Source: a virus | Lineage: Duplodnaviria; Heunggongvirae; Uroviricota; Caudoviricetes | Direction: 5' to 3' (one strand) | Length of the DNA: 9,388 bases | Virus record (IMG/VR): IMGVR_UViG_3300029497_000144 | Shown: piece after piece, positions 4,002 to 4,248 of the stretch | Layout of the letters: every line of letters starts with the position of its first letter | Position numbering within the stretch: position 1 is the first letter of the stretch | Made by a program: the position numbers and the translations under genes | The notes under the pieces: model-generated | Told to the model about the DNA's origin: nothing | What the model saw: the letters and a program-made list of their open reading frames with translations, nothing else | Databases searched by the model: none

Positions 4002-4248
4002 TATCCCTACCAATCCCTACTAACTGGCTCAGGCCACGAATGGCAAGGCTTTCAGACTGGTAGGCATTCAATTTTGTTGCCCTACATAACCCTACTTATC
4101 CCTACTAAATCACTTCAACGGCATTTTGCTGCCTGTTTTATTTGGTAGGGATATGTAGGGATAAGTAGGGATAAAAATATATATCCCTACCTAGTTTAAA
4201 GCCTTGCTACGTCTGGCCTCGTCTCGTTTTTAGTAGGGCAGTAGGGAT
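4002..4248. repeat. Iteron array: 11 copies of an 8-bp element (GTAGGGAT / ATCCCTAC core GTAGGG) in both orientations; candidate origin of replication
   Basis: CCCTAC at 4005, 4015, 4080, 4090, 4100, 4185; GTAGGG at 4145, 4155, 4165, 4233, 4241; one degenerate copy GTAGGC at 4060. Three clusters have exact 10-bp spacing. AT-rich stretch ATAAAAATATATAT at 4171-4184 sits between oppositely oriented copies. The array is immediately 3' of the primase/helicase gene. Confidence 0.7.

What the first reader, a model, noticed from the sequence alone, without database searches (positions are those of the whole stretch)
4002..4248. Helically phased 8-bp iteron array directly downstream of the primase/helicase: candidate satellite origin
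Eleven exact GTAGGG-core copies in both orientations, three clusters with exact 10-bp spacing (4145/4155/4165; 4080/4090/4100; 4005/4015) and an AT-rich stretch (4171-4184) between oppositely oriented copies. This is the architecture of iteron origins bound by an initiator on one face of the helix. The repeat sequence differs from the P4 type I iteron (TGTTCACC, from memory), suggesting a distinct initiator specificity.
Basis: seen in the sequence. Interest (0 to 1): 0.6.

Follow-up and report, generated by a model that had tools for sequence, protein, structure and literature searches.

The report
Satellite island's iteron replication origin
The repeat cluster is real and is almost certainly the replication origin of a small phage-parasite island in E. 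coli, recognised by the primase-helicase encoded just upstream; this kind of origin is already known, and here it simply uses a different recognition word.

Summary
GTAGGG occurs 13 times in the window against 2.85 expected, and 11 copies lie in 4002-4249. The true unit is about 9-10 bp (GGTAGGGATA). A 12th, degenerate copy (GTAGGC, 4060) completes a two-fold symmetric layout of 2 x 6 sites: << > <<< centre >>> < >>.

The window is a PICI-type satellite island at the published yicC-dinD attachment site. The array starts 19 bp after the stop of a P4-alpha-like primase-helicase. The C-terminus of that protein aligns to the solved P4 origin-binding domain (1KA8).

The same layout follows homologous primases in many genera, but with different words: GGTAGAYA in the experimentally validated EcCICFT073 ori, and GGTGAACA in EcCIRM13514 and P4-type relatives. 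The word tracks the C-terminal domain, not the downstream genes. Cores are 87% conserved against 55% for spacers. Each half has the layout of P4's six-iteron ori.

It is a new specificity member of a known kind. Interest is modest. Function itself is not tested.

The parts
4268..6766 (-). P4-alpha-like primase-helicase (Pri-Rep). The ORF is 832 aa from a GTG start; RefSeq starts it at 6709. Domains: Zn-ribbon, Toprim, D5_N, DUF5906/SF3 helicase, Pox_D5 C-terminal domain.
   Evidence: Pfam hits. RefSeq annotation 'phage/plasmid primase, P4 family'. 38% identity to P4 alpha over residues 26-822, and 55% to EcCICFT073 Pri-Rep over 379-819.
4322..4600 (-). Putative origin-binding (winged-helix) domain, residues 723-815 of the primase-helicase.
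   Evidence: Aligns to PDB 1KA8 (P4 alpha origin-binding domain), E = 4e-8. The iteron word downstream changes with identity of this domain.
4145..4249 (.). Primase-proximal half-origin with six sites. In primase orientation: << (4241-4249, 4233-4241), 48 bp, > (4182-4190), AT spacer, <<< (4165-4173, 4155-4163, 4145-4153).
   Evidence: This is the same layout as the P4 ori type-1 repeats read in alpha orientation.
4174..4181 (.). AT spacer AAAATATA between convergent iterons 4165-4173 and 4182-4190. It is the core of the least stable 20-mer in the window (4170-4189) and a candidate melting site.
   Evidence: Nearest-neighbour stability profile. GC minimum of 0.317 at 4140-4199.
4106..4144 (.). 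Dyad centre between the two iteron triplets: 39 bp, 36% GC, with a small hairpin at 4119-4131. Its length varies among relatives (triplet-to-triplet distance 32-82 bp). Alternative melting or hexamer-junction site.
   Evidence: The terminator-like hit at 4119-4131 on the plus strand is no more than chance expectation.
4002..4105 (.). Primase-distal half-origin with six sites, the mirror image of the proximal half: >>> (4097-4105, 4087-4095, 4077-4085), spacer CAATTTTG (4069-4076), < (degenerate GTAGGCATT, 4060-4068), 45 bp, >> (4012-4020, 4002-4010).
   Evidence: Its layout resembles a P4 crr unit (> < < 43 >>).
4031..4219 (.). Long imperfect inverted repeat (arms 4031-4110 and 4140-4219). It shows that spacers as well as iterons are mirrored. 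Both halves carry a conserved spacer motif CAAGGCTTT / AAAGCCTTG (4045-4053 and 4199-4207).
   Evidence: the repeat finder I1, alignment A1, single-stranded DNA fold z = -8.75.
3179..3649 (-). Island-encoded single-strand DNA-binding protein, downstream of the origin. A likely replication accessory, found after the ori in several but not all relatives.
   Evidence: Pfam SSB, E = 1.2e-14. SSB follows the array in CFT073, RM13514, ATCC25922, L002-L005, L047, L050 and L065, but not in L008 or L038.

Best explanation
The array is the vegetative replication origin of a PICI-type phage satellite integrated between yicC and dinD. The island's own P4-alpha-like primase-helicase, encoded immediately upstream, recognises the 9-10-bp iteron GGTAGGGATA through its C-terminal winged-helix origin-binding domain.

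Twelve sites are arranged as two mirror-image half-origins of six sites each (<< > <<< | >>> < >>). The most likely mechanism is as follows. One hexamer of the SF3-type helicase self-assembles on each half, with one origin-binding domain per iteron. The two hexamers face each other across the dyad centre. DNA melts at an AT-rich segment, either the 4170-4189 spacer or the 36%-GC centre. The Toprim/Zn-ribbon primase domain of the same protein lays down primers, and host Pol III with the island's SSB does the rest, giving bidirectional theta replication after induction by a helper phage.

Shown here: existence, significance, conservation and layout of the sites; homology of the protein domains; covariation of word and C-terminal domain; identity of layout with two experimentally defined origins.

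Inferred: binding, hexamer stoichiometry, melting site, and that the origin fires.
For: (1) Significance and clustering of the motif are established. There is only one cluster in the whole island.

(2) Context. The gene order int, HTH (AlpA-like), AntA, Ash, Icd-like, primase, array, SSB, PerC sits between yicC and dinD. yicC-dinD is a published PICI attC, and EcCIRM13514 there has the same order.

[quoted passage not shown] It shows that EcCICFT073 pri-rep plus ori drives plasmid maintenance, lost in the rep or ori mutants. The CFT073 ori region has GGTAGAYA x11 in the layout <<><<<>><>> with spacings 9/48/20/11/9/33/11/20/48/9, almost superimposable on this array.

(4) Protein. Residues 723-815 align to the P4 alpha origin-binding domain 1KA8 (E = 4e-8). 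The helicase core aligns to the SaPI PriRep5 self-loading helicase 7OLA (E = 3.6e-11). Qiao 2022 (PMC9371898) reports that the SaPI Rep C-terminal winged helix binds iterons, that 6-12 iterons lie downstream of rep, and that two hexamers are proposed.

(5) Covariation across 70 loci:
- OBD identity >= 80% gives GTAGGG x7-11, except Rosenbergiella (83%), which has GTAGAG.
- OBD identity 56-62% gives GGTAGA-N or GGTAGGG.
- OBD identity 33-37% gives GGTGAACA, or CTGAAYA in Yersinia.
Mosaic genes that share this primase's N-terminal half (85-89%) but carry a different C-terminal half have a different word and a different layout.

(6) Constraint. Core columns are 87% identical against 55% for spacers among E. 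coli, Buttiauxella, Shimwellia and the L008 contig; permutation p < 1e-4.

(7) P4's annotated ori type-1 repeats, read in alpha orientation, are << 43 > 22 <<<, which is the proximal-half layout. crr lies 51 bp after the alpha stop, with units > < < 43 >>.

(8) The array contains no DnaA box, IHF consensus or GATC. That fits a self-contained initiator.

(9) The array is the least stable duplex point in the window.
Against: - No experiment was done. Binding, melting and replication are inferred by homology.
- The position of the AT-rich segment is not conserved in the family. In P4 and CFT073 it is the 43-48-bp spacer, which here is GC-rich. The melting site is therefore uncertain.
- Iteron word and C-terminal domain are physically adjacent, so part of their co-variation could be simple linkage in one recombination block.
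- No single OBD alignment column cleanly separates GTAGGG from GTAGA binders.
- This island lacks an annotated capsid or terminase module and lacks a lambda/phi80-type cos core. It may be a defective or unusual satellite whose origin is rarely or never used.
- One site (4060) is degenerate.
Confidence: 0.85

Rival explanations
1. The array is only a crr-like cis-acting enhancer or copy-control (handcuffing) element that binds the primase-helicase. Initiation takes place elsewhere, as in P4, where ori lies 4.7 kb away from the crr that follows alpha.
For: The position directly downstream of the alpha-like gene is that of P4 crr, not of P4 ori. The distal half resembles a crr unit.
Against: There is no second cluster of the word anywhere in the complete island or its flanks; only singletons occur. 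The proximal half reproduces the six-site layout of P4 ori itself. In EcCICFT073 the homologous contiguous array together with pri-rep is sufficient for plasmid replication (PMC6092414).
Confidence: 0.06
2. The repeats are operator sites for a transcriptional regulator (for example the island's HTH, Ash or PerC-type proteins) that controls the promoter of the adjacent ORF100-SSB-PerC operon.
For: The array is intergenic, just upstream of the next gene's start (3948). Palindromic repeats are typical of operators. The island encodes several small regulators.
Against: No sigma-70-like promoter is found in 3850-4350 on either strand. The downstream gene set varies while the word stays the same: Kluyvera lacks ORF100, and L008 and L038 lack both ORF100 and SSB. 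Conversely, Tatumella has an ORF100 homologue behind a GGTGAACA array. Mosaics with the same N-terminal half of the primase but a different C-terminal half have different words. Twelve sites over 250 bp in a layout shared with two proven origins is not operator-like.
Confidence: 0.03
3. The feature acts as a structure rather than as binding sites. The 250-nt palindrome would form an RNA hairpin in the read-through transcript (processing or attenuation), or a DNA cruciform used for recombination or packaging.
For: The single-strand fold is very stable: -57.3 kcal/mol, z = -8.75. There is no terminator between the primase and the array, so it is probably transcribed.
Against: Conservation is concentrated in the 6-bp cores, not spread evenly along the stem. 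Sites within one arm are direct repeats at 10-bp spacing, which a hairpin does not require. Rfam gives only far sub-threshold miRNA-hairpin artefacts. The DUF927-type mosaics keep 10-11 repeats of their own word but are not palindromic (<<>>>>><>>>).
Confidence: 0.02
4. It is an origin by descent, but in a decaying, non-mobilisable island, so it no longer functions.
For: The island has no annotated capsid, terminase or cos functions, unlike EcCICFT073. RefSeq marks the ash gene as a pseudogene in the reference strain. One iteron is degenerate.
Against: The 832-aa primase ORF is intact. The array is >= 99% identical in 62 of 78 E. coli genomes that carry it. Its cores are under clear constraint across genera.
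Confidence: 0.1

Closest known systems
EcCICFT073 / EcCIATCC25922 PICI replication origin (Fillol-Salom et al. 2018, ISME J, PMC6092414)
   Same: The island type and gene order are the same (int, alpA-like HTH, Icd-like, pri-rep, ori, small ORF, SSB, PerC). The origin lies immediately 3' of pri-rep. The site layout is the same, << > <<< >>(>) < >>, with nearly identical spacings. The helicase and origin-binding part of Pri-Rep is 55% identical. Its function was shown experimentally.
   Different: The word is GGTAGA(C/T)A rather than GGTAGGGATA, with 11 recognisable sites rather than 12. Pri-Rep is 584 aa and aligns only from residue 379 of the 832-aa protein here, so it lacks this protein's Zn-ribbon/Toprim N-terminal half. 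The AT-rich segment is the 48-bp spacer rather than the 8-bp spacer. The CFT073 island carries capsid genes and a cos site, which were not found here.
Bacteriophage P4 ori and crr with alpha protein (NC_001609 annotation; origin-binding domain PDB 1KA8)
   Same: Alpha-type primase-helicase with the full domain order, 38% identical over its whole length. The C-terminal origin-binding domain is homologous. P4 ori has six iterons in the layout << 43 > 22 <<<, the same as each half here. An iteron element lies directly after the alpha stop.
   Different: The iteron is TGTTCACC (GGTGAACA), not GGTAGGGATA. In P4 the two iteron elements are split by 4.7 kb that contains the alpha operon, and crr is a direct duplication of a modified unit. 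Here the two halves are contiguous and mirror-symmetric. P4's type-2 repeats were not looked for here.
EcCIRM13514 (published PICI at the same yicC-dinD attachment site)
   Same: Same integration site and overall gene order. The array after the primase has the same layout.
   Different: The primase allele is different (607 aa, 47% identical over the C-terminal 450 aa). The word is P4-type GGTGAACA, at about 12-14 sites.
SaPI Rep/ori self-loading helicase origins (Qiao et al. 2022 NAR, PMC9371898; PDB 7OLA)
   Same: The helicase core is homologous (E = 3.6e-11). A C-terminal winged helix recognises short iterons. Six to twelve iterons lie immediately downstream of rep, half on each side in opposite orientation, and two hexamers are proposed to load.
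   Different: The host is Gram-positive and the iterons are 5-6 bp. Primase and helicase are often separate proteins. There is no detectable sequence relation between the iterons.
SV40 large T antigen / papillomavirus E1 origins (my own background knowledge, not tested here)
   Same: An SF3 helicase with its own origin-binding domain assembles as a double hexamer on inverted short repeats flanked by easily melted DNA.
   Different: Eukaryotic viruses with far fewer sites (four pentanucleotides in the SV40 core). The origin-binding domain has a different fold and position. This is an analogy only.

Membership tests
Gram-negative PICI replication origin (Fillol-Salom 2018) | Located immediately 3' of the pri-rep (replication initiator) gene. 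| tested here: met
   The first iteron (4241-4249) lies 19 bp after the primase stop at 4268-4270.
Gram-negative PICI replication origin (Fillol-Salom 2018) | Two sets of short iterons in opposite orientation flanking an AT-rich region. | tested here: met
   Six sites lie on each side of a 39-bp centre with 36% GC. The AT spacer 4170-4189 is the least stable point of the window.
Gram-negative PICI replication origin (Fillol-Salom 2018) | Carried by an island with PICI organisation (int, alpA-type regulator, unidirectional transcription, PICI-specific attC). | tested here: met
   The full island is annotated in L001 with all genes on one strand. yicC-dinD is listed as a PICI attC. The att core is present with one mismatch next to yicC. 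Packaging, capsid and cos functions were not found.
Gram-negative PICI replication origin (Fillol-Salom 2018) | Pri-Rep-dependent autonomous replication of the cloned ori. | not testable with these tools
   Shown only for the homologous EcCICFT073 segment.
Phage P4 ori/crr system | Type I iteron TGTTCACC. | tested here: not met
   There is no TGTTCACC or GTTCAC in 3950-4270; only scattered singletons occur elsewhere in the window. The word here is GGTAGGGATA.
Phage P4 ori/crr system | Alpha-type initiator with primase, SF3 helicase and C-terminal origin-binding domain in one polypeptide. | tested here: met
   Pfam Zn_Ribbon_Prim, Toprim_3, D5_N, DUF5906 and Pox_D5. 38% identity to P4 alpha over 812 aligned residues. 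1KA8 match at E = 4e-8.
Phage P4 ori/crr system | Two separate cis elements (ori and crr) about 4.5 kb apart, both carrying the iteron. | tested here: not met
   There is a single cluster in the whole island. The two halves are contiguous.
Phage P4 ori/crr system | Six-iteron ori layout: pair, about 43 bp, single inverted site, about 22 bp, triplet at 10-11-bp spacing. | tested here: met
   P4: << 43 > 22 <<<. This array: << 48 > 20 <<<, plus its mirror image.
Self-loading helicase origins (SaPI Rep type) | A C-terminal winged-helix domain of the helicase binds the iterons without ATP, and the helicase loads as hexamers on both sides of the centre. | not testable with these tools
   Only homology of the helicase core (7OLA) and of the origin-binding domain (1KA8) was shown. 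The 2 x 6 site count is suggestive.

The most novel reading that the evidence does not exclude
The contiguous, mirror-symmetric 2 x 6-site array is the unsplit, and possibly ancestral, form of the alpha-family origin. Each six-site half would template one helicase hexamer, one origin-binding domain per iteron, so that the palindrome specifies a head-to-head double hexamer.

On this reading P4's long-puzzling need for crr in cis has a simple cause. P4 ori is only a half-origin (the proximal-half layout), and crr (the distal-half layout, duplicated) supplies the second half by alpha-mediated looping across the 4.7 kb that separates them.

The GTAGGG, GTAGAG, GTAGAY and GTGAAC series, with OBDs from 83% down to 33% identical, would then be a natural set of specificity switches for mapping the recognition code of this winged-helix domain.
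Probability: 0.35. Interest if true: 0.5.

Novelty: new member of a known kind. Interest (0 to 1): 0.3.

Why it matters
If it fires, this origin is what lets the island amplify itself after helper-phage induction. Origin-initiator specificity decides which satellites can coexist or cross-activate in one cell.

For annotation, the result gives a simple rule for locating origins in thousands of unannotated P4-family and PICI islands: twelve copies of a 9-10-bp word in the << > <<< >>> < >> layout, directly after an alpha-type primase.

The graded series of words and origin-binding domains is a ready-made system for studying how initiator specificity evolves. It could also supply orthogonal replicons.

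The mapping of P4 ori and crr onto the two halves of the dyad is a testable idea about an old P4 question.

None of this changes the known picture of how such origins work.

Tried and rejected
- **Second cluster (P4-like split ori/crr).** I searched the complete island and flanks and found none.
- **Promoter or terminator signals.** There is no sigma-70-like promoter. The one terminator-like hit, on the non-coding strand, is no more than chance expectation.
- **Known RNA family.** Only far sub-threshold miRNA-hairpin artefacts caused by the palindrome.
- **Host-factor sites.** No DnaA box, IHF consensus, Fis site or GATC in the array.
- **lambda/phi80-type cos core in the island.** None.
- **Specificity-determining residues.** I aligned 20 origin-binding domains grouped by iteron word. 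Only one weak discriminating column (position 753) emerged, so I make no claim.
- **Identity with a published E. coli PICI replicon type.** CFT073 and ATCC25922 use GGTAGAYA, RM13514 uses GGTGAACA, and 042 uses AAGTGAGG with a RepA-type helicase. None uses GTAGGG.
- **Literature.** I found nothing on a GTAGGG iteron or on the ori/crr half-origin idea. Primary P4 replication papers are not held in the library, so P4 facts rest on the GenBank annotation and on marked background knowledge.
- **Not used.** The large protein-database, structure-prediction and fold-search tools, because the PDB sequence match and the 70 genomic loci already answered the question.

Full report
**1. The observation.**
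The hexamer GTAGGG, counted on both strands, occurs 13 times in the 9388-bp window. Dinucleotide-preserving shuffles give 2.85 +/- 1.67, with a maximum of 7.

About 0.075 copies would be expected in a 248-bp stretch, so clustering by chance is excluded.
- With flanks, the repeated unit is 9-10 bp with consensus (T/G)GTAGGGATA(W). Five sites match GTAGGGATA perfectly and two more match with one mismatch.
It is a perfect GTAGGG at the homologous position in Buttiauxella and Shimwellia.
- The 10-bp spacings within clusters are exact.
- The AT stretch between the convergent sites at 4165-4173 and 4182-4190 is real. 4170-4189 is the least stable 20-mer of the entire window (-18.9 kcal/mol against -27.5 +/- 2.8).

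**2. Anatomy.**
Read in the direction of the primase gene (window minus strand), starting from its stop codon, the sites are arranged:

<< (8 bp apart), 48 bp, >, 20 bp, <<< (10, 10), 45 bp, >>> (10, 10), 20 bp, <, 45 bp, >> (10).

- This is a two-fold symmetric design with six sites on each side of a 39-bp centre (4106-4144, 36% GC).
- The symmetry extends into the spacers. The repeat finder reports 80-nt arms, 4031-4110 and 4140-4219, that are 73% complementary.
- The whole 261-nt segment folds as single-stranded DNA into one long hairpin: -57.3 kcal/mol against -26.3 +/- 3.6 for shuffles, z = -8.75.
- The array contains no sigma-70-like promoter on either strand.
- It contains no DnaA box, IHF or Fis consensus, and no GATC.
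- It matches no Rfam family; the only hits are far sub-threshold hairpin artefacts.

**3. Context.**
The region is 100% identical to E. coli chromosomes. The full element is an island of about 11 kb between yicC and dinD, with all genes on one strand. The order is: integrase, hypothetical, HTH regulator, hypothetical, AntA, DUF4222, Ash, Icd-like, two small ORFs, 'phage/plasmid primase, P4 family', the array, a 100-aa ORF, SSB, PerC, and a few small genes.

- This is the organisation of Gram-negative phage-inducible chromosomal islands (PICIs).
- yicC-dinD is one of the published PICI attachment sites, and EcCIRM13514 at that site has the same gene order.
- The published att core is present next to yicC with one mismatch.
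- The array occurs in 77-78 of 5426 complete E. coli genomes, always chromosomal. It is >= 99% identical in 62 of the 78.
- GTAGGG forms no second cluster anywhere in the island or its flanks.

**4. The protein next door.**
The 832-aa ORF at 4268-6766 (minus strand) carries Zn_Ribbon_Prim, Toprim_3, D5_N, DUF5906 (SF3-type helicase) and Pox_D5 C-terminal matches.

- It is 38% identical to P4 alpha over its whole length.
- It is 55% identical to EcCICFT073 Pri-Rep, and 47% to EcCIRM13514 Pri-Rep, over the helicase plus C-terminal part.
- Against solved structures, residues 406-668 align to the staphylococcal PriRep5 self-loading helicase (7OLA, E = 3.6e-11).
- Residues 723-815 align to the P4 alpha origin-binding domain (1KA8, E = 4e-8).

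**5. Comparative test.**
A scan of one genome per species returned 70 loci that encode relatives of the primase. For each I took the 400 bp after the stop codon and asked which 6-mer is most repeated.

| C-terminal domain identity | Loci | Word downstream |
|---|---|---|
| >= 80% | Kluyvera, Atlantibacter, Buttiauxella, Shimwellia, one mislabelled contig | GTAGGG x7-11 |
| 83% | Rosenbergiella | GGTAGAG x11 |
| 56-62% | Yersinia, Tolumonas, Aeromonas | GGTAGATA, GGTAGAC, GGTAGGG, GGTAGAGAG |
| 33-37% | Rahnella, Tatumella, Erwinia, Serratia | GGTGAACA |
| 33-37% | Yersinia | CTGAAYA |

- GGTGAACA is the reverse complement of the P4 type-1 iteron TGTTCACC.
- In all of these the site layout is the same << > <<< >>> < >> with very similar spacings.
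- Genes that share this primase's N-terminal half at 85-89% but have a different, DUF927-type C-terminal half are followed by different words (TGAACCAAC, TGAGACAAC; 10-11 copies) in a different, non-palindromic layout. The same mosaicism is visible in about 2000 E. coli genomes.
- Downstream genes do not predict the word. Kluyvera has the GTAGGG array but no ORF100. L008 and Aeromonas L038 have neither ORF100 nor SSB. Tatumella has an ORF100 homologue behind a GGTGAACA array.
- Within the GTAGGG group, iteron-core columns are 87% identical against 55% for spacer columns. No random placement of 12 hexamers reached that value in 10,000 trials.

**6. Comparison with experimentally defined origins.**

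- *EcCICFT073.* Fillol-Salom et al. [quoted passage not shown] They showed that the EcCICFT073 pri-rep-ori segment maintains a temperature-sensitive plasmid at the restrictive temperature, whereas the rep or ori mutants do not.
- I extracted that segment. It holds GGTAGA(C/T)A x11 in the layout <<><<<>><>> with spacings 9/48/20/11/9/33/11/20/48/9, nearly superimposable on the present array. EcCIATCC25922 is the same.
- EcCIRM13514 has GGTGAACA. EcCI042 has AAGTGAGG with an unrelated RepA-type helicase. None of the published E. coli replicon types uses GTAGGG.
- *P4.* In the P4 reference record, the annotated ori carries six type-1 repeats. Read in the orientation of the alpha gene they are << 43 > 22 <<<, the layout of the primase-proximal half here.
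- crr lies 51 bp after the alpha stop. It consists of two direct 120-bp units, each > 14 < 18 < 43 >>, which resembles the distal half.
- The two elements that P4 keeps 4.7 kb apart, with the alpha operon between them, therefore correspond in order and relative orientation to the two contiguous halves of this array.

**7. Mechanism.**
The best-supported reading is that this is the island's replication origin and that the adjacent primase-helicase is its initiator.

- The C-terminal winged-helix domain recognises GGTAGGGATA.
- By analogy with SaPI Reps, a hexamer would self-load on each half of the dyad. For SaPI Reps, Qiao et al. 2022 report iteron binding by the C-terminal winged helix, 6-12 iterons downstream of rep, and a proposed pair of hexamers (PMC9371898). 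Here there are six sites per half.
- The duplex would open at an AT-rich segment. The primase domain would prime, and host polymerase with the island's SSB would complete bidirectional replication.

Shown here are the sites, their constraint, the layout identity with proven origins, the domain homologies and the word/domain covariation. Binding, stoichiometry, melting point and firing are inferred.

The melting site is uncertain. The most AT-rich segment here is the 8-bp spacer at 4174-4181, whereas in P4 and CFT073 it is the 43-48-bp spacer, which here is GC-rich.

**8. Rivals.**

- *A crr-like enhancer without initiation.* This is unlikely because there is no other cluster, and the homologous CFT073 segment is sufficient for replication.
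- *An operator array for the adjacent operon.* This is disfavoured by the absence of a promoter and by the independence of word and downstream genes.
- *A purely structural RNA or cruciform role.* This is disfavoured because constraint sits in the cores, and because the DUF927-type relatives keep repeats without a palindrome.
- *An origin by descent that is no longer used.* This cannot be excluded. The island lacks recognisable capsid, terminase and cos functions. Against it, the primase ORF is intact and the array is conserved.

**9. Novelty and verdict.**

- The kind of element is already described for PICIs, SaPIs and P4. What is new here is a specificity variant, GGTAGGGATA, paired with a full-length alpha-type primase-helicase, that is not among the published E. 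coli PICI replicon types.
- Two by-products may be useful. The first is the explicit 2 x 6 mirror layout conserved across at least five iteron words. The second is the mapping of P4 ori and crr onto its two halves.
- I found neither point in the searchable literature. The primary P4 papers are not in the library, so I cannot claim priority.
- Interest is modest, at about 0.3.

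Noticed in passing
window 6982-6991 and 7837-7846: There are two runs of 10 N in the window (masked or unresolved bases). They lie in the small-ORF and Ash region upstream of the primase and may distort ORF calls there. The E. coli record L001 has continuous sequence.
   Followed up: no
window 3966-3998: There is a C8 ... G5 inverted repeat (ACCCCCCCC-ATAGAATCTTTTT-GGGGGTG) between the last iteron and the start of the 100-aa ORF. The 'AAAAGATT ... GGGGGG' element is conserved after the array in Kluyvera, Atlantibacter, Buttiauxella, Shimwellia and Rosenbergiella (alignment A1), and a similar G-run follows the CFT073 ori. 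It is not a canonical terminator. Its role (part of the origin, priming site or translation signal) is unknown.
   Followed up: partly
window 4045-4053 and 4199-4207: A spacer motif CAAGGCTTT / AAAGCCTTG is mirrored in both 45-48-bp spacers and conserved among the GTAGGG-type loci. A related CTGAAAGCC occurs in the CFT073 and ATCC25922 ori. It may be a second binding site or a structural element. It does not match the IHF consensus.
   Followed up: partly
window 4268-6766 (breakpoint near residue 370-380, about 5630-5660): The primase gene is a mosaic. Its N-terminal Zn-ribbon/Toprim half is shared at 74-89% DNA or protein identity with 'TOPRIM and DUF927' genes in about 2000 E. coli genomes and in Enterobacter and Kosakonia. 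Its helicase and origin-binding half occurs in only about 75 E. coli genomes.
   Followed up: partly
L008 (CACSKA010000009.1, labelled Chryseobacterium sp. 18061): A contig assigned to a Bacteroidota genus carries an enterobacterial-type primase (82% identical) with a GTAGGG array. This is probably contamination or a mis-binned contig rather than true cross-phylum transfer.
   Followed up: no
L001 8420-20133 (whole island); window 1-3650: Unlike EcCICFT073, EcCI042 and EcCIATCC25922, this island has no annotated major capsid, head decoration or small terminase genes, and no lambda/phi80-type cos core. After PerC it carries a pRiA4b ORF-3 family gene and small hypotheticals. How, or whether, it is packaged is unclear.
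   Followed up: partly
H83/H84 (NZ_CP047469.1, NZ_CP171864.1) and H85 (NZ_CP061754.1): A few E. coli genomes match only the distal 202-214 bp of the array, in two places per record, with no gene annotated under the match. One array (H85) is only 79% identical. These may be disrupted or divergent origins.
   Followed up: no
L010-L070 (Xenorhabdus, Photorhabdus, Proteus loci): Xenorhabdus genomes carry many paralogous alpha-type primases; X. innexi alone has five loci. Downstream of these, only weak repeated words (GATGTA / TATACA, x4-5) were detected. Their origins may use longer or more degenerate iterons, or lie elsewhere.
   Followed up: no
L001 20336-20347; window right end not covered: The published att core GAGCAGATTCAA is found only once, with one mismatch, at the yicC/int end. 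No second copy within one mismatch was found at the dinD end, so the right boundary of the island is undefined.
   Followed up: no
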